IMG/VR virus record: IMGVR_UViG_3300005095_000122
Coordinates: 1-62,732 of that record
From: a virus
Taxonomy: Duplodnaviria; Caudoviricetes
Direction: 5' to 3' (one strand)
Length of the DNA: 62,732 nt
Shown: piece after piece, positions 1-21,238 of the stretch
How positions within the stretch are numbered: the first letter of the stretch is position 1
Layout: each line of letters starts with the position of its first letter
The notes under the pieces: model-generated
Told to the model about the DNA's origin: nothing
Databases searched by the model: none
Seen by the model: the letters and a program-made list of their open reading frames with translations, nothing else
Program-made: the position numbers and the translations under genes

Positions 1-91
1 TGTAAAACGAAATCTGGTTTGGGTATGGGTGATTTCGCTCCAGCCAGGAGTGCCGTCAGAGCCGGTGTTGCGTCTCTATCCCATGCCCGAC
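1..91. repeat. Terminal direct repeat (assembly overlap of a circular contig), copy 1
   Basis: nt 1-91 are identical to 62642-62732, and an ORF reads through the junction in frame. Confidence 0.97.
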
Positions 92-12255: not shown

Positions 12256-13842
12256 ATGGCCAGACGAGTTCGTTTTGTGTGGGAAGATCCAGGGGAGTTG
12301 GCGCGCCAGCTACGCCGCGGGGAAGTGACAAAAGAGCAGGTAATAAAAGCCGCGCGCAAAGACCCGGTTGGTTGGATTAAGAACGTTTTGGGAGTAAAAC
12401 TTTATGAAAAGCAGGAGCAGATAGTAAAAAGCCTATATCGTCACAAGCGTTTAGCGGTACAGGCAGCGTTTTCCGTGGGAAAAACATTCCTCGCAGCAGC
12501 CATTGCCCTGCATTTCCTTTACAATTACGCCCCTTCAAAAGTAATCACTATAGCTCCCACCTGGCGTCAAGTCATCGGCCTTTTATGGCGTGAGATTCGC
12601 AAACTTTATAAACGAGCACTAGACCGAGGATGGGGTCTCATAGGCAATCTCAAGAAGACAGAGCTTGAGATTGACGAAGACTGGTTCGCGATGGGCTTTT
12701 CAACCCAAACAAGTGATGAGCAGGCCATCGACCGCATAACCGGTTTTCACCAGGAGAATATGTTGGTGATAATGGACCAAGCAGGTGGTTTAGGCGATCT
12801 TTGGTGGCGAGCAGTCAAAACCATGCTCGCCGGGCGGCATAATTACTGGCTAGCTTTGGGTAACACAGCTATTTGGAACTGCCCTTTTCGGCGCATTTGT
12901 TTGGAAGGTGGGATGCCGGGCCTCGGTCGCTGGCACGTCGAGAAAATCACAGCTTACGATTCCCCAAACGTACGTGCCAGGCGTACGGTCATACCCGGGT
13001 TAGTTTCTTGGGAGTGGGTCAGGGATATGGAGTCCCTGGGTCGCGATGACCCTCTCTTTCGCATATATGTTTTGGCCGAATTTGTGGCCGAGTCCGATCT
13101 CTTGCTCATACCCACCGAGGCTCTTGAGGCAGCCCGGACCGCCGAAATAAACATTTCCCCGGAACCCCAAGTCGCATTCGGTCTTGACGTAGCTTTGGAC
13201 GGAGGGGATTATTCAGTTTTGATAGGACTGGATCGCCGGACAGGGCAGCTTTTAGTCCTTCGCCGTATCCGGGGCAATCGCACTCACGGAGTGGTTTCAT
13301 TTGTGGAGTCGGTGGTGAACCAGGTTAAGCAAGTATATGCCCAATCTCAGCCGACGTTGGTGGCCGTGGACGCGGTAGGTATCGGGGCAGGTGTTTATGA
13401 CCTTTTGACAGAGCGGCTATCGGTCCCGGTGATTCCGATAATAGGCTCAGAGTCGCCACAGAATCCCCGCGCATTTTTGAATAAACGGTCTGAATCAGCG
13501 TGGCAATTACGAGAAGCATTTTCAGGGCGACAGATTCGATTACAGGTGCCGCAAGATCGATTTTCGGATTTGGTGGATCGAGAGTCTTATGGGAAATTAC
13601 TGGACCAGTTGCAAAATATGCCGTACCAGTATGACCAGCACGGCCGAATAAAACTACCGCCCAAAACAATTCTCAAGGGCATTTTTGGACATTCACCAGA
13701 TGAGTTTGACGCTTTGGTCTATGCGCACCAGGCGCGACAGGTCGCCGAGGCGTCAGTGGTGCGAGTAGTGACTCCGCAAACACAGGAAGAGTTGAACCCA
13801 TTTGAAGATCCTACTTTATGGGAGGAAGTGGAATGGCATTAG
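12256..13842 (+). CDS. Terminase large subunit
   Basis: YEKQ, Walker A AAFSVGKT, APTWRQ, Walker B VIMDQAG, LGN, RNase H-like GLDVA..G.D, AVDAVGIGAGV, SPDEFDA. Confidence 0.93.
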   Translation: MARRVRFVWEDPGELARQLRRGEVTKEQVIKAARKDPVGWIKNVLGVKLYEKQEQIVKSLYRHKRLAVQAAFSVGKTFLAAAIALHFLYNYAPSKVITIAPTWRQVIGLLWREIRKLYKRALDRGWGLIGNLKKTELEIDEDWFAMGFSTQTSDEQAIDRITGFHQENMLVIMDQAGGLGDLWWRAVKTMLAGRHNYWLALGNTAIWNCPFRRICLEGGMPGLGRWHVEKITAYDSPNVRARRTVIPGLVSWEWVRDMESLGRDDPLFRIYVLAEFVAESDLLLIPTEALEAARTAEINISPEPQVAFGLDVALDGGDYSVLIGLDRRTGQLLVLRRIRGNRTHGVVSFVESVVNQVKQVYAQSQPTLVAVDAVGIGAGVYDLLTERLSVPVIPIIGSESPQNPRAFLNKRSESAWQLREAFSGRQIRLQVPQDRFSDLVDRESYGKLLDQLQNMPYQYDQHGRIKLPPKTILKGIFGHSPDEFDALVYAHQARQVAEASVVRVVTPQTQEELNPFEDPTLWEEVEWH

Positions 13843-14291
13843 AAAACCGTTGGTATTTGTGGAATCGACGAGGTGTGGAATCTCCGGTAGATTCGGTATC
13901 TTTTGTGACGGAAGAGGGACAGGTACGAATTTTTCCAGAGAAGCAAGGTTATTTAAAGATTTTGGTGGGAGAAAAGCCAATACGCTTGAATTTTTACGAG
14001 GGCAAGATACGCTTGGCGGACTTGACGATCGTGGGTGTAGGAGACCTAGGATGTTTGTATTTTGCATTTTGGCGGCGCGGAGACAGTCAGCCACACCCTT
14101 CGTGGTTCGCTGGGGCAATAAATCCCGGACCCAATTGGCGCGATTTTTTGTTGCCGCTACGGCAACAGCGCCGCAAGATAGTTTGGGCAAAGAGGCTTTG
14201 GGGATTTCTGGAGAGAGAAGAGCGCCAGTCGCGGACTGTTTATAAGAGTATATCTTTTGCGCAGCGTTACGGGGTAACCAAGCCGCGGTAA
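13833..14291 (+). CDS. Hypothetical protein (first gene of the terminase-portal insert)
   Basis: ATG 13833 with GGAGG upstream, overlapping the TerL stop; no recognisable motif. Confidence 0.6.
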   Translation: MALENRWYLWNRRGVESPVDSVSFVTEEGQVRIFPEKQGYLKILVGEKPIRLNFYEGKIRLADLTIVGVGDLGCLYFAFWRRGDSQPHPSWFAGAINPGPNWRDFLLPLRQQRRKIVWAKRLWGFLEREERQSRTVYKSISFAQRYGVTKPR

Positions 14292-14300
14292 GGAGACGGT

Positions 14301-15047
14301 ATGGCAGAATTACAACCCATGCCCATATTAACACGCCGTCCAGTTTATGTGCTGTTTTCAGGCGGTCGTGATTCGACCGTAGCTTTGCATTGGGCGAAGA
14401 CGCAGTTCCCATTAGTGAAAGCAATATACGTTTCTTTGAACGATGACTGGTCTTCGCTAATAGAACACGTTCGGCGAGTAGCAGAAACCTTTTCGATTGA
14501 CCTCGAGATCAAGCAAGGTCCAAATCTTTATGATATTTTCGCAGCCGTCGGCCCGAAGCTCACTCCGGCAGCGATGGTGTGCAAAAAAGCAATGCTGGAA
14601 ACGGCACTAAGTGACATCCCAAAAGGTTCAATTTTGGTTTGGGGAAGTACCAGAAAACAGGCAAGCGTGATGGCGCGGATGTCCCAACCCATCCGCCGGG
14701 AGGGGGATTATATCTATATACGTCCTTTGCTTTTTAAAGGGTTTCCCTCGACGCGTTACTATATACGCGCGAATCGCCTTCCCATTTGGGAGGGGTATCG
14801 CCAGGGCTTGAACCGGACCGCCTGCCGTCTATGTCCGGGACAACGTCCTTTTTATTATGCCTTTTTGAGGCGACACCATCCAGATCTTTGGGAGCGACTT
14901 TTACGGTTTGAGCAGCAGTATGGGATTCGTCCGTGGCAGGCCCCTAGAGGGACGGCCTCTTTTACGGATTTGGCCAATTTAGCGGAGGTGTACCGATGTA
15001 CGCAGGGTGAAGTTTCCCGGGATCTCCGGCCAAGCAGGCAATCTTAA
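14301..15047 (+). CDS. PAPS-reductase-family / PP-loop adenylating enzyme (DndC-like fold), possible Fe-S
   Basis: PP-loop FSGGRDS, ..CKK, RPLL, C-terminal RTACRLCP. Confidence 0.8.
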   Translation: MAELQPMPILTRRPVYVLFSGGRDSTVALHWAKTQFPLVKAIYVSLNDDWSSLIEHVRRVAETFSIDLEIKQGPNLYDIFAAVGPKLTPAAMVCKKAMLETALSDIPKGSILVWGSTRKQASVMARMSQPIRREGDYIYIRPLLFKGFPSTRYYIRANRLPIWEGYRQGLNRTACRLCPGQRPFYYAFLRRHHPDLWERLLRFEQQYGIRPWQAPRGTASFTDLANLAEVYRCTQGEVSRDLRPSRQS

Positions 15048-15098
15048 AGAGTTTGCGCGATTGAGCAGACGTTGGTAATCGGAAAAATGGAGGAAGTC

Positions 15099-15521
15099 AT
15101 GAAGCAACAAAAAGAACAAGCACAGCAAGAGCCGAACAAGGGTGAGAGCCTTTTTGAGCGGCTAGGGTTGGCGTCGAGACCTCATGAATCAGTAGTGTAT
15201 CTATACGAGTCTTGGAAACGGACTCGAGAACAAGAGACGTTGGCCAAGCTAGCGTACAGGATTGCAGAATTTGTGCAGGAAGATACGAAGAACCATCTTT
15301 CAACAGCAATGCTATGTGACATTTTGAGTTTTAAACCGGGGAAACAAGAGTTCTTTTATATGTTAGTAAAGACTTTTATGCAGTGGTTTTCGGCCGTGGA
15401 CGAGAACGTGCAGGCAATTATGATTTACACGGTGGATCGTGAGTGGGATAATATGAAGCAGTTGCAGCGTTTTTATACGCAGCAAGCGTCAGAAACGCCC
15501 ACAAATAAAACTTCACATTAG
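15099..15521 (+). CDS. Hypothetical helical protein
   Basis: ATG 15099 with GGAGG at 15089-15093; directly precedes the Ubl-like gene. Confidence 0.6.
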   Translation: MKQQKEQAQQEPNKGESLFERLGLASRPHESVVYLYESWKRTREQETLAKLAYRIAEFVQEDTKNHLSTAMLCDILSFKPGKQEFFYMLVKTFMQWFSAVDENVQAIMIYTVDREWDNMKQLQRFYTQQASETPTNKTSH

Positions 15522-15532
15522 GGAGGTAGAAG

Positions 15533-15970
15533 ATGAGTCAAGAGAATCGTCAGCAGCAGTTACCCATCGTTTTTCCTGACGGGCAGGAGACACAATTGGA
15601 AGAAGTGACTCCTGAGCGTATAACCGAGATCGTACGCTCGCGTCTGGGATCGGCCAGGTTTATGGTGTACGATCAAGAAGGCAATCCCTTAGCTCCAGAG
15701 GATTTGGGAAGTCCGACGGTACGCCGCCTTTATGTAGAGGAGTATAATGAAGCCAAAGCTCCGATTCGCGAAATCCGGGACGAGAAGCGAAATGAGGTTT
15801 GGTACATAGACACCAAGACCGGTGAAGAAGTAAACCCATTTGAGGATGAGGAGACTTTTGTGTGTCCGTCATGTGGTGAGGAATATTCTGAAAACAGCCT
15901 GCCAGATAGGTGTGCTGTTTGTGGAGAGCCGTTGGCGGAATTGGACGACCATGATGATTTGATTTGGTAG
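15533..15970 (+). CDS. Putative ubiquitin-like (beta-grasp) protein with C-terminal Zn-ribbon extension
   Basis: aa 10-76 read as beta-beta-alpha-beta-beta-beta (PIVF-PDG-ETQL / TPERITEIVRSRLG / RFMVYD-QEG / RRLYVEEYNEAKA), followed by CPSC...CAVC. Directly upstream of E1, E2 and JAB genes. The fold is inferred by eye. Confidence 0.6.
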   Translation: MSQENRQQQLPIVFPDGQETQLEEVTPERITEIVRSRLGSARFMVYDQEGNPLAPEDLGSPTVRRLYVEEYNEAKAPIREIRDEKRNEVWYIDTKTGEEVNPFEDEETFVCPSCGEEYSENSLPDRCAVCGEPLAELDDHDDLIW

Positions 15971-15981
15971 GGAGTGAGCAG

Positions 15982-16617
15982 ATGAGCGATCTCTATTTGC
16001 GACAAAAGGAACTAAATCTAAAGGTCCCCGAAGGCGTGATGGTGGTGGGGTGTGGTGGTGTTGGTTCATGGGTAGGATTGTTCTCCGCATTGGCAGGGGT
16101 CGAGAATATTTTGTTGGTAGATCCAGACGTGATTGAGGAACATAATCTAAATCGTACCCCTTTTACTCAGACCCAGGTCGGTCAAAACAAGGCCGAAGCC
16201 TTGGGATTCTTAATAAAAGAGCGGCGGCCGGGGGTACAGCTGGGCGTGGTGCCGCTACGTGTGGAGGATTTGGTTTTGATCGCTCCAGCCGAAGCTTGGG
16301 CGCAGATCCCAGTTGTTTTTGATTGTCGTGACACCAGCGAGCCGCTGCCTGATTTTCTCAAGGGGAAAACGCCAATTGTGGGGGGATATAACGGCAATTC
16401 GATAACACTCCACACATGGCCGGACCTTCGACCAACACCTTTGTGGGGTGCGGTAGGGCAAGGTTACAATACCCCGTCTTGGGTAGCCCCACCGACCCTT
16501 TTGGCTTCTCTATTGATTTTTGCAACGTTCTCTTATGATTTGCCGCGACAGACTCGCATTTCGACGTTGACGATGCAGGATGTTTTTGATCGGGTGATGG
16601 CAAAGCGTTGGCAATAG
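15982..16617 (+). CDS. ThiF/MoeB/E1-family adenylating enzyme
   Basis: YLRQ arginine motif, VVGCGGVGS, DPDVIEEHNLNR, VGQNKAEAL, VFDCRD. Confidence 0.92.
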   Translation: MSDLYLRQKELNLKVPEGVMVVGCGGVGSWVGLFSALAGVENILLVDPDVIEEHNLNRTPFTQTQVGQNKAEALGFLIKERRPGVQLGVVPLRVEDLVLIAPAEAWAQIPVVFDCRDTSEPLPDFLKGKTPIVGGYNGNSITLHTWPDLRPTPLWGAVGQGYNTPSWVAPPTLLASLLIFATFSYDLPRQTRISTLTMQDVFDRVMAKRWQ

Positions 16618-16643: not shown

Positions 16644-17711
16644 ATGTCTTACGAGAATTTGTGTGCGGTGTTGGAGCCTTATGGGTATCAGGTTTTTGCG
16701 ACGGCAGAGACTCGAGTGGCGGCTCCTACTCCACGCATAGCAGCGCGAACAAGTCGCGTAACGTATCACGTCGATATTCCCACGGGTATTCAACCCATAT
16801 CGGTATCGCTAGATGAGATTTTTCCGGCAACAATGCTGCCGACTCAATCCAACTTGTCAAATATACAACTGCCCACTCAAGCAGTGGCAGTGGTTTATAC
16901 GATCGGTGGTAAGCAAGTATTTTTGTTTGATAGGTTTGGGAACTTTTTTATATCAGCTTCGATCCCGTGGGCTTTCATAGGCGGAACCCACTTTCCCCAG
17001 TTAATCTCTTGGATACACGGCAACCACTCCAGGTGGATACAAGACCAAGTAATTGATTTTTTGTCGGCGGTTCAACATTATTATCCAGTAAGAATTGTTG
17101 AAGTGAAAATAGAATTGGATCGTGACGCATTGGCACAACAGTTATCCGATGAGCTGAATCGCCGAGTGGAGGCGATTCGGCGCATGATAGAAGCGGAGGC
17201 CAATGTAAAAGTAAGATTTGCGCAGGAGCAATATAAACAGCTTCAAAAGAAAATTGCAAAGTTGTCGCAAGAATTGGAGCGACAATCTCTTACTAGCATA
17301 AAACCATTTTTGGAGGCGTTGTCTCCGTACAGTTACCAGTTAGAGGGAGATTATTTGATAATAACAAGCCGTTTTGATGTAAGATTTTTGAAAAACAACG
17401 GGGAGATAAAGCCACTTCCTCCGAACAAAGTGGGTCATTTTTACATAGAAAAGTTTCGGTTCAAGATAGGAGAAACGGTAAACCGAGCTCAGGCCCAGGG
17501 ATACCATCCGAATCTCCAGGGCAATTCTCGCGATACGTGGGCAACCTTTTGTTTGGGTGATTTGTCAAATTCGTCTCCAATAAACTTGTTACGGGGCCTA
17601 AAGTCTTTGTTGGAAGTAGGGAATCTTGATTCAAGTTATGGAAACAAAGCAGCAAAAGAGGCGCTAGAGTTATGGCCTCAGTTGACTTCACAAGACGTGT
17701 TATGGAGGTAG
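16644..17711 (+). CDS. Prokaryotic E2/UBC-like conjugating-domain protein with central coiled coil
   Basis: C-terminal YHPN(288-290)...FC(303)LGDL...LLEVGNLDSSY resembles the UBC HPN..C and LxxPNxxS elements; lies between E1 and JAB genes. Confidence 0.7.
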   Translation: MSYENLCAVLEPYGYQVFATAETRVAAPTPRIAARTSRVTYHVDIPTGIQPISVSLDEIFPATMLPTQSNLSNIQLPTQAVAVVYTIGGKQVFLFDRFGNFFISASIPWAFIGGTHFPQLISWIHGNHSRWIQDQVIDFLSAVQHYYPVRIVEVKIELDRDALAQQLSDELNRRVEAIRRMIEAEANVKVRFAQEQYKQLQKKIAKLSQELERQSLTSIKPFLEALSPYSYQLEGDYLIITSRFDVRFLKNNGEIKPLPPNKVGHFYIEKFRFKIGETVNRAQAQGYHPNLQGNSRDTWATFCLGDLSNSSPINLLRGLKSLLEVGNLDSSYGNKAAKEALELWPQLTSQDVLWR

Positions 17712-17714
17712 AAG

Positions 17715-18203
17715 ATGATTTGGCAGTCTGTGTCACTAGTACGAATCCCGATAATTAAGGTGTCTTTAGACGTAAAGTTAATTTTTTCAGGCTTACAGAA
17801 CTACGTGCCAGGAAAAGAACTCTCTGTTCTGTTTAAAGCCGTTCCCACAAAGCGAGGTTTTGAGGTGTTGCCGGAGTGGGTACTGCCCGCTCAAGAGGTC
17901 ACCACCACGTCGGTTGATTATAGGGAAGATCTATCCGCGTTTCGTAAGCAAGGGTTTCTTTGTGTGACCCATTCTCATCCTTTTACTTCGGACAAGGCAT
18001 CGTTTTCAGCAAATGATTGGGACAACATAAATGCAAACTTTCCAGTTTCTTTGTTATTTAATGGAAAGGGAGAGATAACCGATTGGACGCTGACAATAAC
18101 GCCGAAAGAAAATGACCAGATGCGTTTGCAACTGGGAAGGGACGAAGTAGAGTTGCGGGTACGTCCTAGTTTAGACATAAAGTCACGAGTAATTGTGCGT
18201 TAA
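17715..18203 (+). CDS. JAB/MPN+/JAMM metalloprotease
   Basis: Upstream Glu (KELSVLF), PAQEV, and HSHPFTSDKASFSAND (HxH...SxxD). Confidence 0.85.
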   Translation: MIWQSVSLVRIPIIKVSLDVKLIFSGLQNYVPGKELSVLFKAVPTKRGFEVLPEWVLPAQEVTTTSVDYREDLSAFRKQGFLCVTHSHPFTSDKASFSANDWDNINANFPVSLLFNGKGEITDWTLTITPKENDQMRLQLGRDEVELRVRPSLDIKSRVIVR

Positions 18204-18256
18204 CCTGCTTGAATTTTAAGTGGCGCTGCGTATATTCCAAGGTAACGGAGGGAAAT

Positions 18257-21238
18257 ATGCGCAGCGTCACAGATTGGTTTTTGTCGCAAACGAAATTACG
18301 CAAATTTGTGTTGGACCATTCTTACGAGTCCGTTTCTTGGGTCTTTGCGTGCGTTCAGCGCATTTCAACTGCCGCGTCTTCCGTTCCTTATATATTCACT
18401 CCGGAGAAACATGAATTGGTCTCTTTATTGCGGCGGCCAGAGTTTCCCCGCATTCCTTCATTTTCCAAACTAATAGAAATAACTTTTATGTATATGGAGC
18501 TTGATGGGGGGTGTATTTGGTATTGGGAAGATGAGGATTCTTTGCGTATTCTTTCGATAAAAGATGTCTCGCCGATGATGGATCAAAAGGACCCAACAAA
18601 GCTAATCGGTTGGGTCAGATATCGTCCCGACTCCCGTGTGCCGGATAAGGTAATCTCGCCTTCCGAAGTCGTTCCTTTTATCTATTTTAATCCGAGAAAT
18701 CCGTTACACGGACTTTCTCCTCTCAAGCCCGCGCGATTGGGGCTAGAACAGTGGTTTAACATGTCTGCTTGGAATGCGGCATTCTTTGAGTCAGGAATAA
18801 GAGCTCCTTTGGTTTTGGTGTCGAAGCACAAATTGACAGCCGAGCAAGAAAAACAAATACAAAAACGATTGAGAGAGTTTTATGCAGGGCTTTCTGGCGG
18901 ACATTCTGCGCTAATAGTAGATGGTGAGGCGGATGTAAAGCCATTAAATACCTCAGCGAAAGAGTTGGATTTTATCGAGGGCTTGCAGTTATCAAGAGAA
19001 GAGATTTGCGCGATTTTTGGAGTTCCTCCGGCTTTGGTAGGCATTTATAGGTATGCCAACTATGCCAATACCAAAGAACAACGCAAAATTTTTTGGGAGC
19101 AAACGATGCTCCCAAAACTTCGTTTTGTGGAGGAAATGCTAAATGCCTTTTTTGAGGTGAATGGGCGGGAGGTGGCTTTTGAATGGGATTATTCCAAGAT
19201 CGAGGCCCTCCGGCCCGACCCAATTGATGCAGCGCGAGCGGCAGAGATTTATGCCAATTTGGGCTATAGCAGAGACCAGATCGCAAGCATTTTGAATATT
19301 CCCCAGCTGGCCCCGGCTGAGGAAACACAGCAAGGACCGGAGGATTCTGAGGACAAAACAACGTATGTGGTCGGCCCGCGTACGGTAAAATTATCAGATG
19401 AGGATTATGCGCACGAGCTAGTTTCAACGTTTCGCATTTATGAGTCAAAGTGGGAAAGATTTTTTCGTGTTTTGGCGAAACAGTCGGCCGATGAGCTTTT
19501 GCTCCAGCTACGCCGTCGAGGGGAGATAGACGAAGGGCTTTATAGAAATAATGCACAACTTTGGCATGAAGATGCGGAACAGCGTACTTTTGAAGAGTTT
19601 TTTGTGTCTTATGCAGTAGCTTCTCGCGAAGTGTCCACGTCCAGGATTAAATTGGAGTCGGGAATCGAAGCCCATTTGAAAACCTTTGATTTGGATGCGT
19701 TTTTAAACACTTTGGATTTGAAAGAACGTGATTTTGCAGTGTCGGTGGCGCGCGAAATAGCGTATAAGACGCGGTGGGTGACGGATATGGTGCGCGAAAC
19801 CATTTTACAGGTAGTTTTGGCCCGTCTTTCTACTGGCGGGGCCTATGCGACCATTTCTGAAATTAAATCAGAGCTATATGCTTTTATTGAAGAACGTTAT
19901 TTAGGCCGCTCGCTGACCATAGCCCGAACAGTATCGGGAGCAGCATTAAATGCAGGAAGGTATGCAGTTTGGCAATCGAGGGGAGTGACTCATCACCGGT
20001 GGATAACGGCCCGCGACGCGGAGGTGCGGGATACCCATGCCTTGCAGCATGGGCAGGTAGTGCGTATAGGGGAAGCGTTCCAAAACGGTTTGTTGTATCC
20101 ACACGATCCAAATGGACCGGCCCGGGAGGTAATCAACTGCCGTTGTACAACCACACCAGTTGCTAAGCTGGAGGGCACGCGTCCTCGACCGGTAAAGCCT
20201 CGCAAAACCGATCTCCGCACCGCCTATGAAGAGTTCATTCTTGGTTTAGAAGAGCTGGTCGAGGTTTTCAAAGACAAGAATTATTGGAAAGAGCGCAAAC
20301 TTTGGGCTTTTGAGGGTTATGCAGAGAACCAACCTATTCATGAAGCGGATAAAGCAGTAACTAGTTTAGCAAAAGTGGTGAAGGATAATGATTTCCAGAA
20401 CATAGGTAAGTTTATCGAGGAAAATCGCAAGAACCAGCGGGTTTCCTTGCAGATGTCGGCGTCGTTTAAAGTGTCGGAGAAGGCACAAGATACCTTTGAG
20501 AGATATCTTGGACGGTTGTTGCCGAAAGAGACTACCGAGTTGCTGCACCATTCCGGTTTGAAGATGGAATTTAAGAATATTAACATAGGCGGATTGTATC
20601 GCATACGTGAGAATAAAATAGTGTTGAAGTTGACGAAAACAGATGTCGAACAGTTAGCGGATTTGATGCGGGTAAGTATGGGGGAATTGACTGCGGAGGA
20701 ATTAGAAAAGAGTTTGGTAAAATGGGCCGAGCGAAAGGTGGCGAAAAAGGAAATTGATCCAGATACACGAGACTTTATAGTAAAGAAGTTGGTGGCGGAT
20801 CGCAAAGGTTGGTTGATGCGGAAGCTGGAAACAGTGGTTCATGAATATGGTCATGCGGTACACAAACACGATCCAATAGTACAGGGGATGGTAAAAGACA
20901 TTTATGAGGCACGCGTAACAGAGAAAACATATCGGCGTTACGATCCGGGGAAGTGGCCTTCGTACTATGCGGGAAGAGTATATCCACGGCCCCCAGTTGG
21001 TGTGACGAGAGGGGCAGAGGTCCCTTCGGTAGCTTTTGAGGCTTTGGCAGTAGTGCCTCAGTCTGCGCAAGGGGCAAAGGAGTTGGCAGAGGTGATAAAA
21101 ACGATGTTGCCGGGCCATGCAGAGATTTCTAATTACCGTTCTACCTATTCGTTTATCCCAGATTTTGTGGATTATTGGTTTGAGGATATTCATTTTGAAG
21201 CGGAGAAAATTAAAGCAAAACGAACGGGGGGACAGTGA
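18257..21238 (+). CDS. HK97-family portal fused to a MuF (Mu gpF / SPP1 gp7-like) domain and a C-terminal zincin-like metallopeptidase domain
   Basis: Portal motifs WVFACV, GLSPL, EICAIFGVPP..VG, YANTKEQ; MuF motifs IART, WITARDAEVRDTH, YPHDP, INCRC; C-terminal HEYGH with a downstream Glu. ATG 18257 with GGAGG. Confidence 0.88.
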   Translation: MRSVTDWFLSQTKLRKFVLDHSYESVSWVFACVQRISTAASSVPYIFTPEKHELVSLLRRPEFPRIPSFSKLIEITFMYMELDGGCIWYWEDEDSLRILSIKDVSPMMDQKDPTKLIGWVRYRPDSRVPDKVISPSEVVPFIYFNPRNPLHGLSPLKPARLGLEQWFNMSAWNAAFFESGIRAPLVLVSKHKLTAEQEKQIQKRLREFYAGLSGGHSALIVDGEADVKPLNTSAKELDFIEGLQLSREEICAIFGVPPALVGIYRYANYANTKEQRKIFWEQTMLPKLRFVEEMLNAFFEVNGREVAFEWDYSKIEALRPDPIDAARAAEIYANLGYSRDQIASILNIPQLAPAEETQQGPEDSEDKTTYVVGPRTVKLSDEDYAHELVSTFRIYESKWERFFRVLAKQSADELLLQLRRRGEIDEGLYRNNAQLWHEDAEQRTFEEFFVSYAVASREVSTSRIKLESGIEAHLKTFDLDAFLNTLDLKERDFAVSVAREIAYKTRWVTDMVRETILQVVLARLSTGGAYATISEIKSELYAFIEERYLGRSLTIARTVSGAALNAGRYAVWQSRGVTHHRWITARDAEVRDTHALQHGQVVRIGEAFQNGLLYPHDPNGPAREVINCRCTTTPVAKLEGTRPRPVKPRKTDLRTAYEEFILGLEELVEVFKDKNYWKERKLWAFEGYAENQPIHEADKAVTSLAKVVKDNDFQNIGKFIEENRKNQRVSLQMSASFKVSEKAQDTFERYLGRLLPKETTELLHHSGLKMEFKNINIGGLYRIRENKIVLKLTKTDVEQLADLMRVSMGELTAEELEKSLVKWAERKVAKKEIDPDTRDFIVKKLVADRKGWLMRKLETVVHEYGHAVHKHDPIVQGMVKDIYEARVTEKTYRRYDPGKWPSYYAGRVYPRPPVGVTRGAEVPSVAFEALAVVPQSAQGAKELAEVIKTMLPGHAEISNYRSTYSFIPDFVDYWFEDIHFEAEKIKAKRTGGQ

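What the first reader, a model, noticed from the sequence alone, without database searches (positions are those of the whole stretch)
15533..15970. The putative Ubl has no C-terminal Gly and is made as a fusion to an acidic Zn-ribbon
Seen: the predicted last strand ends ...YVEEYNEAK75-A76-P with no Gly nearby, followed by about 70 aa containing CPSC/CAVC and an acidic end (DDHDDLIW). Established: Ub, ThiS, MoaD and SAMPs are activated at a terminal Gly; eukaryotic ubiquitin is made as fusions to Zn-finger ribosomal proteins; CBASS Cap2 can accept Ala-terminated substrates. Inference: the JAB cleaves near K75/A76, giving non-Gly conjugation chemistry and releasing a Zn-ribbon peptide with its own role.
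Basis: partly seen in the sequence, partly recalled or inferred. Interest (0 to 1): 0.75.

Follow-up and report, generated by a model that had tools for sequence, protein, structure and literature searches.

The report
Phage ubiquitin-like tag ending in lysine
A complete phage genome encodes its own ubiquitin-style tagging kit whose tag is made as a precursor fused to an acidic zinc-ribbon and, unlike every characterised ubiquitin-like tag, appears to end in lysine instead of glycine once trimmed.

Summary
ORF 15533-15970 (145 aa) has a ubiquitin-fold domain (residues ~7-75) ending ...YVEEYNEAK75, then A76-P77 and a 70-aa acidic tail with CPSC/CAVC, ending DDHDDLIW. The nearest glycines are G59 and G97.

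It is the first gene of a tight Ubl / E1 / E2-like / JAB cassette between terminase and portal of a complete 62.7-kb tailed-phage genome.

I assembled a family of 42 distinct relatives of the Ubl domain that no Pfam model covers. K75 falls in the column where 17 of the 42 proteins simply end. That column holds G in 29 rows, K in 10 and A in 3. One Lys-type relative (P0029) ends exactly at ...EYNEAK; the others carry 1-20 extra residues.

The Zn-ribbon extension is unique to this phage among the relatives I could examine. A similar acidic Zn ribbon sits on the JAB C-terminus in one related locus.

JAB cleavage, activation of a Lys carboxylate and the tail's role remain inferences. The E1 family lacks a conserved Cys but has a near-invariant loop Tyr. 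The E2-like protein has an invariant Cys.

Verdict: a new variant of a known kind; interest 0.72.

The parts
15533..15970 (+). Ubl-Zn-ribbon precursor gene (145 aa)
   Evidence: ORF and translation; ribosome-binding site; homologues
15533..15757 (+). Ubiquitin-fold (beta-grasp) domain, residues 1-75
   Evidence: AF2 model, pLDDT 81-90 over residues 11-70; Foldseek and VIA-align matches to ubiquitin/SUMO/ISG15; BFVD matches to viral ubiquitins
15740..15757 (+). Conserved C-terminal tail E70-Y-N-E-A-K75. The predicted processing site is after K75 (between nt 15757 and 15758).
   Evidence: Invariant in the first 3-sequence alignment. The K75 column is the last residue of 17 of 42 family rows.
15758..15967 (+). 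70-aa acidic extension: linker A76-P77, predicted beta-hairpin 78-93, Zn ribbon, acidic end DDHDDLIW
   Evidence: None of the other family members found has it.
15863..15922 (+). Two CxxC knuckles (C111, C114, C127, C130)
   Evidence: sub-threshold zinc-ribbon Pfam/NCBIfam matches; BLASTP E 1e-4 to the C-terminal Zn ribbon of the L008 JAB protein
15964..16617 (+). Minimal E1-like adenylating enzyme (217 aa from TTG 15964; an ATG with a GGGAG site lies at 15982)
   Evidence: Pfam ThiF 5.8e-20. Profile matches to MoeB, MccB, Uba1, ThiF, UBA5, Cap2 and BubCD. No conserved Cys outside the DCRD motif; Tyr168 is conserved in 12 of 13 family E1s.
16644..17711 (+). E2-like protein (355 aa): poorly modelled N-terminal part, long helix 160-226, UBC-like C-terminal domain 219-347 with the YHPN motif and invariant Cys303 (nt 17550-17552)
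   Evidence: Alignment A5, invariant C303/G305/S330; AF2; Foldseek rows almost all E2 enzymes; VIA Z 4.8-5.5
17715..18203 (+). JAB/JAMM metallopeptidase (162 aa)
   Evidence: E35, H86, H88, S98 and D101 invariant in 10 of 10 family JABs. Pfam Prok-JAB only E 0.012, below its cut-off.
12256..13842 (+). Terminase large subunit (upstream flank; context only)
   Evidence: PHROG phrog_2, 5.7e-33
18209..21238 (+). Portal + Mu-F-like fusion protein (downstream flank; context only)
   Evidence: Pfam Phage_portal 1.6e-47, Phage_Mu_F 1.4e-10

Best explanation
The 145-aa protein is the precursor of a phage-encoded ubiquitin-like modifier.

Shown: it has a ubiquitin fold. It heads a tightly packed Ubl / E1 / E2-like / JAB operon in the head-morphogenesis region of a complete tailed-phage genome. 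Its K75 occupies the family's C-terminal position.

Inferred:
(1) The JAB metallopeptidase cuts after K75. This frees a 75-residue Ubl ending ...EYNEAK and a 70-residue acidic Zn-ribbon peptide.
(2) The cysteine-less minimal E1 adenylates the alpha-carboxylate of Lys75, possibly through the conserved loop Tyr168 as in Bub E1s.
(3) The Ubl passes to Cys303 of the E2-like protein. The large N-terminal part and coiled coil of that protein would choose the target, since no E3 is present.
(4) The Ubl is ligated to a target that is still unknown (phage virion or host protein), and the JAB can reverse this.

The Zn-ribbon tail is most likely a pro-domain or docking module of the machinery and not part of the tag. 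Relatives lack it on the Ubl, and one relative carries a similar module on its JAB.
For: Fold.

Cassette: E1 Pfam ThiF 5.8e-20; JAMM residues invariant in 10 of 10; E2-like invariant Cys in 9 of 9. The UBC-like fold has 42 of the 43 listed Foldseek rows as E2 entries (best E 1.8e-2) and VIA Z 4.8-5.5 over 93-109 residues.

The same four genes recur in L001, L004/L005, L006, L008, L013 and L086.

Processing site: MAFFT alignments place K75 in one column with the terminal residue of relatives. Of 42 distinct rows the column is G 29, K 10, A 3, and 17 rows end exactly there, including the Lys-type P0029.

Lys-type members: the window, P0004 (+DV), L006 (+TV), L086/P0009 (+VS), L001 (+13 residues overlapping the E1 start), P0002 (three tandem domains, each ending EYNEAK) and P0029 (+0).

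The Lys-type Ubls whose DNA I hold (window, L001, L006, L086) all sit beside their own E1, E2-like and JAB genes with the catalytic residues kept.

Precedents in print: JAB trimming of Ubl precursors and fusions in Bil (PMC10557695 passages) and Bub (PMC11601596 Results parts 1-2); a cysteine-less E1 that uses a crossover-loop Tyr.

Tail module: BLASTP E 1e-4, 11 of 29 identical with the same knuckle spacing, to the acidic Zn ribbon at the C-terminus of the L008 JAB.
Against: No experiment and no structure of a complex supports any step.

In CBASS, changing the conjugated C-terminal Gly to Arg, Ser, Val or Trp abolished conjugation (Jenson 2023 passages). A Lys carboxylate therefore needs an E1 pocket that no characterised E1 is known to have.

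I found no acidic residue specific to the E1s of Lys-type systems. Only three discriminating columns turned up, all confounded by relatedness.

The AF2 model puts a confident beta-hairpin (78-93) only two residues after K75. This might limit protease access, although pLDDT dips to 65 over residues 71-80.

The three-domain P0002 could be an uncleaved multi-beta-grasp Ubl like those of Bub/Bil (PMC11601603 passages), so it does not prove polyubiquitin-like processing.

The E2 fold match is weak (no Foldseek E <= 0.001; Z about 5). The exact HPN tripeptide is present in only 4 of 9 family members.

The Zn-ribbon similarity rests largely on the cysteines.
Confidence: 0.55

Rival explanations
1. 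The protein is never cleaved. It acts as a two-domain adaptor: a non-conjugatable ubiquitin-like domain (as in UBX or parkin-type Ubl domains) tethers a Zn ribbon to the E1/E2/JAB proteins or to another partner.
For: There is no Gly at the junction. A structured hairpin starts two residues after K75. A similar Zn ribbon is permanently fused to the JAB in L008.
Against: 17 of 42 relatives end exactly at the K75 column and most others carry only 1-2 extra residues, the pattern of conjugatable Ubls and their precursors. The neighbouring enzymes keep all catalytic residues. No other family member found has the Zn-ribbon domain on the Ubl.
Confidence: 0.14
2. The Ubl is a ThiS/MoaD-type sulfur carrier. 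The E1 adenylates it, it is thiocarboxylated, and the sulfur is used by the PP-loop (PAPS-reductase/QueC-like) enzyme two genes upstream to modify nucleic acid, as in TtuA/TtuB-type pathways. The JAB only matures the carrier.
For: The E1 lacks a catalytic Cys and its best NCBIfam matches are ThiF/MoeB (also MoeB at the top). A PAPS_reduct/QueC-like gene lies at 14301-15047. Iyer et al. 2006 list ThiS/MoaD + JAB + E1 neighbourhoods with PAPS reductase (passages). One relative is labelled ThiS by a source (P0011).
Against: An E2-like protein with an invariant Cys is a constant member of the cassette. phmmer found no PP-loop gene within about 5 kb of the cassette in any of the other loci. No rhodanese or cysteine desulfurase was seen in the seven neighbouring proteins scanned. 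Pfam ThiS matches only 1 of 11 members, at E 0.059.
Confidence: 0.1
3. The precursor is cut, but not after K75. The cut could fall after G97 (...DTKTG), giving a classical Gly terminus, or after A74, or a host protease could make it.
For: G97 is the first glycine downstream and follows a basic/polar stretch loosely like the ...AKDARG tails of the Gly-type relatives. JAMM enzymes characterised so far cut after Gly.
Against: Residues 76-97 have no counterpart in any relative. The anchor [Y/H/K]-[N/D] + 3 residues places the terminus at K75 in every aligned row. P0029 ends at the Lys itself.
Confidence: 0.07
4. Lys-type Ubls are non-conjugatable decoys. The phage uses them, or the whole cassette, to jam or reverse a host Ubl-based defence such as Bil, and not to tag proteins itself.
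For: Hosts conjugate Ubls to phage tail proteins (abstract of the Hor et al. preprint in the listing; Bil summary). The whole family occurs on phage-like contigs.
Against: Lys-type Ubls keep their own E1, E2-like and JAB genes with intact active sites. A decoy would not need them.
Confidence: 0.08

Closest known systems
Bil (BilABCD) bacterial ISG15-like anti-phage systems (Chambers et al., PMC10557695; summary in Ye et al., PMC11601596)
   Same: Separate Ubl, E2, JAB and E1 genes. The JAB pre-processes a Ubl precursor and even cuts a Ubl-GFP fusion. There is no E3, and the E2 is thought to pick the target.
   Different: [quoted passage not shown] Here the E1 is a single 217-aa adenylation domain without a conserved Cys. 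The Bil Ubl ends in Gly; here it ends in Lys. Bil is a host defence system; this cassette is in a phage genome. The E2-like protein here is 355 aa with a long N-terminal part and a coiled coil.
Bub (6E / DUF6527) pathways (Ye et al. 2024, PMC11601596)
   Same: The Ubl is synthesised as a fusion and released by a JAB. The homodimer-type minimal E1 lacks a catalytic Cys and has a conserved Tyr near the end of the crossover loop; Tyr168 here is kept in 12 of 13 family E1s.
   Different: BubA is fused to its E2 and cut after a conserved Gly. The Bub E2 uses Ser, whereas here Cys is invariant. BubE/DUF6527 is absent from the whole phage genome. By profile the E1 is no closer to BubCD (8.7e-7) than to MoeB or MccB (about 2e-14).
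Eukaryotic ubiquitin-ribosomal protein fusions (Ub-RPS27A, Ub-RPL40) and polyubiquitin (recalled; no paper read here)
   Same: A ubiquitin-fold modifier is translated as an N-terminal fusion to a small Zn-binding domain. Precursors carry one or a few extra C-terminal residues. Tandem head-to-tail Ubl repeats exist in the family (P0002).
   Different: The tail here is strongly acidic and is not a ribosomal protein (NCBIfam S27e only E 0.016, 14.7 bits against a cut-off of 70). The junction is Lys-Ala, not Gly-Gly-X. The resemblance is an analogy, not homology.
Phage lambda/T1 tail-assembly protein I (TAPI) with the TAPK JAB domain (Iyer, Burroughs and Aravind 2006, PMC1779556, passages)
   Same: A phage-encoded Ub-like domain carries a C-terminal extra domain next to a JAB peptidase predicted to release it.
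   Different: TAPI has a conserved C-terminal Gly and a Gly-rich linker, has no E1 or E2, and sits in the tail module. Here there is a full E1/E2 set in the head module.
MccB / microcin C7 (E1-like enzyme acting on a non-Gly C-terminus; function recalled)
   Same: MccB is a ThiF-family adenylating enzyme and ranks among the best profile matches of this E1 (1.8e-14). It is a precedent that E1-like enzymes can activate a non-Gly C-terminal residue.
   Different: The MccB substrate is a heptapeptide, not a beta-grasp protein, and the product is a nucleotide-peptide, not a protein conjugate.

Membership tests
Ubiquitin-like beta-grasp fold | beta-beta-alpha-beta-beta-(beta) grasp fold superposable on ubiquitin | tested here: met
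   AF2 secondary structure E10-13, E19-22, H27-38, E43-46, E66-70. VIA Z 7.3-8.0 with model residues 8..74 on ubiquitin 1..75/76. Foldseek prob 1.00. The model is a prediction from a single sequence.
Conjugatable Ubl modifiers (Ub, SUMO, SAMP, BilA, BubA) | C-terminal Gly (usually Gly-Gly), exposed directly or after trimming | tested here: not met
   The aligned terminal position is Lys75, and no Gly lies within 15 residues. 29 of 42 relatives do have Gly there.
Conjugatable Ubl modifiers | Encoded with a cognate E1, E2 and deconjugating peptidase | tested here: met
   The same gene set recurs in L001, L005, L006, L008, L013 and L086.
ThiS/MoaD sulfur carriers (Pfam PF02597) | Profile match to ThiS/MoaD; partner sulfur-transfer enzymes | tested here: not met
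   No match for the window protein. 1 of 11 family members matches, at E 0.059. No sulfurtransferase among the seven neighbours scanned.
E1-like (ThiF/MoeB/Uba) adenylating enzymes | Rossmann GxGxxG nucleotide loop and ThiF-family profile match | tested here: met
   Pfam ThiF 5.8e-20, 71.9 bits against a cut-off of 28.1. VVGCGGVGSW and DPD..E.HNLNR motifs are conserved.
Canonical E1 (Uba1, UBA5, BilD, Cap2) | Catalytic Cys in or inserted into the crossover loop | tested here: not met
   The only Cys residues of the window E1 are in the GCGG and DCRD motifs. No Cys column is conserved in the loop region across 13 family E1s.
Bub pathways | BubE (DUF6527, PF20137) present | tested here: not met
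   No match at E <= 0.1 in the complete phage genome; the control genomes did ring.
Bub pathways | E2 with catalytic Ser; E1 with catalytic crossover-loop Tyr | tested here: inconclusive
   The E2-like protein has an invariant Cys, not Ser. The E1 has Tyr168 in 12 of 13 sequences, but equivalence to BubCD Y370 was judged from sequence position only.
Bil (BilABCD) | E1 with IAD-AAD-CYS architecture | tested here: not met
   217-aa single-domain E1. The architecture definition is taken from Ye et al..
E2 / UBC fold | UBC fold with the catalytic Cys downstream of an HPN motif | tested here: inconclusive
   YHPN(x12)C303 in the window; Cys invariant in 9 of 9, exact HPN in 4 of 9. 42 of 43 listed Foldseek rows are E2 entries but the best E is 1.8e-2. 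VIA Z 4.8-5.5. No Pfam, NCBIfam or PADLOC E2 model matches.
JAB/JAMM (MPN+) metallopeptidases | E ... HxH ... SxxD zinc site | tested here: met
   E35, H86, H88, S98 and D101 invariant in 10 of 10. Pfam Prok-JAB only 16 bits against a cut-off of 25.
Zinc ribbon | Two CxxC knuckles on beta-hairpins binding one Zn | tested here: inconclusive
   C111/C114/C127/C130. 19 Pfam zinc-ribbon-type families match at E <= 0.1 but none reaches its cut-off. pLDDT is 62-78 in this part.

The most novel reading that the evidence does not exclude
A lineage of phage-borne ubiquitination-like systems activates and conjugates its Ubl through the alpha-carboxylate of a C-terminal lysine instead of glycine. It uses a cysteine-less E1 (possibly a Tyr oxyester, as in Bub) that hands over to a Cys E2. 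In this phage the tag is additionally made as a pro-protein whose acidic Zn-ribbon tail docks or regulates the machinery. The phage would use the system late in infection, from its head-morphogenesis operon, to tag virion or host proteins.
Probability: 0.4. Interest if true: 0.85.

Novelty: new variant of a known kind. Interest (0 to 1): 0.72.

Why it matters
Every characterised E1-dependent protein modifier ends in Gly. The only tolerated exception documented in what I read is Ala, in CBASS cGAS, where bulkier residues including Arg abolished conjugation.

A conserved Lys at that position, in a sub-family that keeps intact E1, E2-like and JAB partners, would show that the Gly rule is not a chemical necessity. 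It would also give a natural system for asking how an E1 pocket handles a long basic side chain, including how it avoids self-cyclisation of a lysyl-adenylate.

These cassettes are also phage-encoded, whereas the bacterial systems studied so far (CBASS Cap2/Cap3, Bil, Bub) are host systems, shown (CBASS, Bil) or suspected (Bub) to act in defence. A virus of prokaryotes bringing its own complete ubiquitin-like tagging kit, partly wired into the head-assembly operon, would open the question of what phages tag.

The Ubl, E2-like and JAB proteins are invisible to Pfam, NCBIfam, PADLOC and PHROGs at curated thresholds, so the family is currently unannotated.

Tried and rejected
- Word-indexed protein search with the single 145-aa protein found only itself.
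- tblastn of the Ubl and of the E1 against 50,697 phage records gave no usable match.
- The exhaustive HMMER search gave 7 hits at E <= 0.001. P0003 (a 3381-aa repeat protein), P0005 (a Zn-knuckle repeat protein) and P0007 (a YD-repeat protein) were read and set aside as summed weak repeat matches. P0006 (1957 aa, 8 stretches on the Zn-ribbon part) was set aside on the same pattern without being read.
- The search for longer or fused relatives (187-2000 aa) found none. This is weak evidence, because the known 222-aa P0002 was not recovered either.
- The search for related loci with the E2-like alignment returned only the L001 contig again.
- VIA-align against all PDB representatives with the E2-like model was filled by coiled-coil matches to helix 158-229 and said nothing about the C-terminal domain.
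- Complex prediction of the JAB with Ubl residues 1-100: no verdict (score 0.05, the mark is 0.32).
- The look-up of sequencing runs: none was listed, and no RNA holder was listed.
- The upstream 149-aa protein shows no similarity to the 114-aa protein at the same place in L001.
- The PAPS-reductase-like gene, the 149-aa and 157-aa proteins and the Zn-ribbon tail have no phmmer match in any other fetched locus.
- A search for an E1 residue specific to Lys-type systems gave three columns (E vs D; Gly140/141-region G vs A/I/L/C/P; P vs A/T/C), all confounded by relatedness.
- The search of earlier findings held nothing for this genome. The other-genome Ubl cassettes listed are different families and did not change my reading.
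- Paper searches turned up no description of a phage Ubl/E1/E2/JAB cassette or of a Lys-terminal Ubl. Supplementary tables of the Bil/Bub papers could not be seen and might list related operons.
Full report
**1. The observation**

The ORF is there as described: 15533..15970 (+), ATG start, 145 codons, TAG stop. An AGGGAGG ribosome-binding site lies 6 nt upstream.

- The protein reads ...RRLYVEEYNEAK75-A76-P77-IREIRDEKRNEVWYIDTKTG97-EEVNPFEDEETFV-C111PSC114-GEEYSENSLPDR-C127AVC130-GEPLAELDDHDDLIW145.
- The glycines nearest to K75 are G59 and G97.
- The 70-residue tail has 21 acidic and 6 basic residues (pI 4.05) and holds all four cysteines.

**2. What the N-terminal domain is**

- A single-sequence AlphaFold2 model (mean pLDDT 75.8; 81-90 over residues 11-70) gives a beta-beta-alpha-beta-beta beta-grasp. 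It is followed by a hairpin (78-93) and short Zn-ribbon strands.
- Foldseek against the PDB returns ubiquitin, SUMO, ISG15 and UBX domains (best E 1.4e-3, prob 1.00).
- VIA-align gives Z 7.3-8.0 (rmsd 2.1-3.6 A, 65-73 residues aligned). Model residues 8..73-75 lie on ubiquitin residues 1..74-76. In three dimensions, therefore, K75 falls where ubiquitin's G75/G76 fall.
- BFVD returns the ubiquitin inserts of pestivirus polyproteins and giant-virus ubiquitins.
- The Z values are in the range the tool calls middling. However, the hit list is homogeneous and covers the whole domain.

**3. The setting**

The window is a complete IMG/VR virus record with direct terminal repeats, and all long ORFs lie on one strand. 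The genes in order:

| Coordinates | Gene | Evidence |
|---|---|---|
| 12256-13842 | terminase large subunit | PHROG 5.7e-33, |
| 13818-14291 | 157-aa unknown | |
| 14301-15047 | PAPS-reductase/QueC-like PP-loop protein | |
| 15072-15521 | 149-aa unknown | |
| 15533-15970 | the Ubl precursor | |
| 15964-16617 | 217-aa E1 | Pfam ThiF 5.8e-20 |
| 16644-17711 | 355-aa protein | see below |
| 17715-18203 | 162-aa JAB | see below |
| 18209-21238 | portal + Mu-F fusion | |

A prohead protease and an HK97-type capsid protein follow the portal. The gaps between the Ubl, E1, 355-aa, JAB and portal genes are -7, 26, 3 and 5 nt, so they form one operon.

The capsid protein is at most 33% identical to that of any phage in the collection. 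The host is unknown.

**4.

- Nine family members share only C303, G305 and S330 as invariant residues. These sit in a motif reading YHPN-x12-C-L-G in the window and YHPN-x8-C-L-G in L001, which resembles the HPN...Cys active site of UBC enzymes.
- With that alignment AlphaFold2 models residues 225-350 at pLDDT 80-92. The N-terminal 160 residues are poorly modelled, and 160-226 is one long helix.
- 42 of the 43 Foldseek rows listed are E2 enzymes or their complexes (best E 1.8e-2, prob 0.96).
- VIA-align places model residues 219-347 on E2 residues about 10-146 at Z 4.8-5.5.
- I call it E2-like with moderate confidence. No Pfam, NCBIfam, PADLOC or PHROG model recognises it.
- The protein atlas points to unnamed clusters of 51-287 members, partly viral. 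That is a lead only.

**5. JAB and E1**

- Across ten family JABs, E35, P58, Q60, H86, H88, S98 and D101 are invariant. This is a complete JAMM zinc site.
- The E1 is a bare adenylation domain. Its profile matches MoeB and MccB (about 2e-14), then Uba1, TcdA, PaaA, ThiF, UBA5 and Cap2, and more weakly BubCD (8.7e-7).
- The E1 has no cysteine outside the GCGG and DCRD motifs.
- In 12 of 13 family E1s a Tyr (Y168, in ...GQGY-x-TPSW) sits four residues before the conserved PS[FW] that ends the crossover-loop region.
- Ye et al. (PMC11601596, Results parts 1-2 read) showed that Bub E1s lack a Cys and use an invariant Tyr near the end of that loop. The parallel is suggestive but rests on sequence position alone.

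**6. Where relatives end**

Sources of relatives:
- The exhaustive HMMER search gave two true relatives. P0004 (77 aa) ends ...EEYNEAK-DV. P0002 (222 aa) has three tandem domains, each ending EYNEAK, followed by S, G or the final Q.
- Searching collections with the Ubl and then with the E1 gave loci with the same cassette. In each, a small ORF upstream matched a Ubl profile.
- A profile search of the large protein collection added 28 proteins.

Results from one MAFFT alignment:
- There are 44 rows, 42 of them distinct.
- K75 shares a column with the terminal residue of the family. The column is G in 29 rows, K in 10 and A in 3.
- Seventeen rows end exactly there (13 G, 3 A, 1 K).
- Five rows have 1 extra residue, twelve have 2 (one of these is the window's own row, which I had cut at residue 77; its true extension is 70 residues), and eight have 7-20.
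- An anchor [Y/H/K]-[N/D] three residues upstream keeps the register constant: ...EYNEAK, ...RHNKAG-Q, ...KHNKAA, ...PYDEAG-R, ...AKDARG, ...THDVAA.

The Lys-type rows:

| Member | After the Lys |
|---|---|
| window | +70 residues |
| P0004 | +DV |
| L001 | +13 residues, which overlap the E1 start |
| L006 | +TV |
| L086 and its near-twin P0009 | +VS |
| P0002 | three domains |
| P0029 | ORF stops right after ...EYNEAK |

For window, L001, L006 and L086 I hold the DNA. Each has its own E1, E2-like and JAB genes with the catalytic residues intact.

This is the core result.

**7. The tail**

- No other family member found has a Zn-ribbon on the Ubl. The search for longer relatives found none, which is weak evidence.
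- In locus L008 the JAB protein ends in an acidic Zn ribbon with the same knuckle spacing (BLASTP E 1e-4, 11 of 29 identical).
- Acidic C-terminal tails also occur on the L005 JAB and the L013 E1.
- I therefore read the tail as an accessory module of the machinery that happens to be attached to the Ubl here. It would have to be removed before activation.
- Six Gly-type relatives carry a different 9-20-residue extension with a basic-aromatic motif. C-terminal pro-peptides are thus common in the family.

**8. Mechanism**

Shown:
- the fold, the gene set and the conserved catalytic residues;
- the family terminus at K75.

Inferred:
- the JAB cuts K75|A76;
- the E1 adenylates the Lys75 carboxylate, perhaps passing it through Tyr168;
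- Cys303 of the E2-like protein takes the Ubl over, and its large N-terminal part selects a target;
- the JAB reverses the conjugation.

The target is unknown. Only the window and L001 have the cassette beside the portal. In L005, L006, L008 and L086 the neighbours differ and the gene order is Ubl-E2-E1-JAB.

Against the model:
- CBASS data show that Arg, Ser, Val and Trp are not tolerated at the conjugated terminus.
- I found no convincing pocket-forming change in the E1.
- Nothing here is experimental.

**9. Rivals**

- An uncleaved adaptor (0.14).
- A sulfur-carrier pathway using the upstream PP-loop enzyme (0.10). It is weakened by the constant E2-like Cys protein and by the absence of the PP-loop gene near the cassette elsewhere.
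- A cut elsewhere, such as after G97 (0.07).
- A decoy or anti-defence role (0.08).

**10. Comparison with known systems and novelty**

- The cassette works like Bil and Bub but is a member of neither. Its E1 lacks the Bil IAD-AAD-CYS architecture. DUF6527 is absent from the genome. The E2 nucleophile is Cys, not Ser.
- It parallels the eukaryotic Ub-RPS27A fusion only by analogy.
- Six full-text searches found no description of it. The supplementary tables of the Bil/Bub papers were not visible.
- I rate it a new variant of a known kind.

Noticed in passing
window 18209-21238: The portal protein is fused to a Mu-F-like domain (Pfam). It also carries a C-terminal region with an HExxH-type motif (HEYGH in the window, HELGH in the L001 homologue, read). 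This could be a virion-borne metalloprotease-like domain.
   Followed up: partly
window 14301-15047: A PAPS-reductase/QueC-like PP-loop protein (Pfam 2.5e-9; PHROG phrog_424, 3.5e-19) lies between terminase and the Ubl cassette. It is not found near the cassette in any other fetched locus.
   Followed up: partly
L008 5692-6678 (JAB ORF): The JAB protein of this related locus ends in an acidic Zn ribbon with the same CxxC spacing as the window's Ubl tail. The L005 JAB and the L013 E1 have long acidic C-terminal tails.
   Followed up: partly
L005 2729-3298 and L008 2491-3117: In these loci the Ubl domain is preceded by an N-terminal extension of about 110 residues that looks like a winged-helix DNA-binding domain. 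This is by reading only and was not tested.
   Followed up: no
P0012, P0013, P0014, P0015, P0024, P0028: Six Gly-type family Ubls carry a 9-20-residue extension after the terminal Gly with a recurring basic-aromatic motif (R-x-[RK]-[FY]-[IT]-[WF]). This is a second kind of pro-peptide in the family.
   Followed up: no
L005 6754-9750 (= L004 4885-7881): Directly after the JAB gene lies a 998-aa ORF that begins like a glutamine amidotransferase, contains a PP-loop (SGGxDS) and holds a long insertion that may be an intein. This is by reading only and was not tested.
   Followed up: no
window 15964-16617 and family E1s: E1s of the four Lys-type systems share GGY[N/D]G, where the other systems have A/I/L/C/P in place of the first Gly, and share a Pro in ...APP.... 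This could make room for the Lys side chain, but the signal is confounded by relatedness.
   Followed up: partly
family Ubls (alignment): Many family members start with a conserved M-[ST]-[DE]-V-[WF] N-terminus. The inner repeats of P0002 begin with DVW right after the residue that follows EYNEAK.
   Followed up: no
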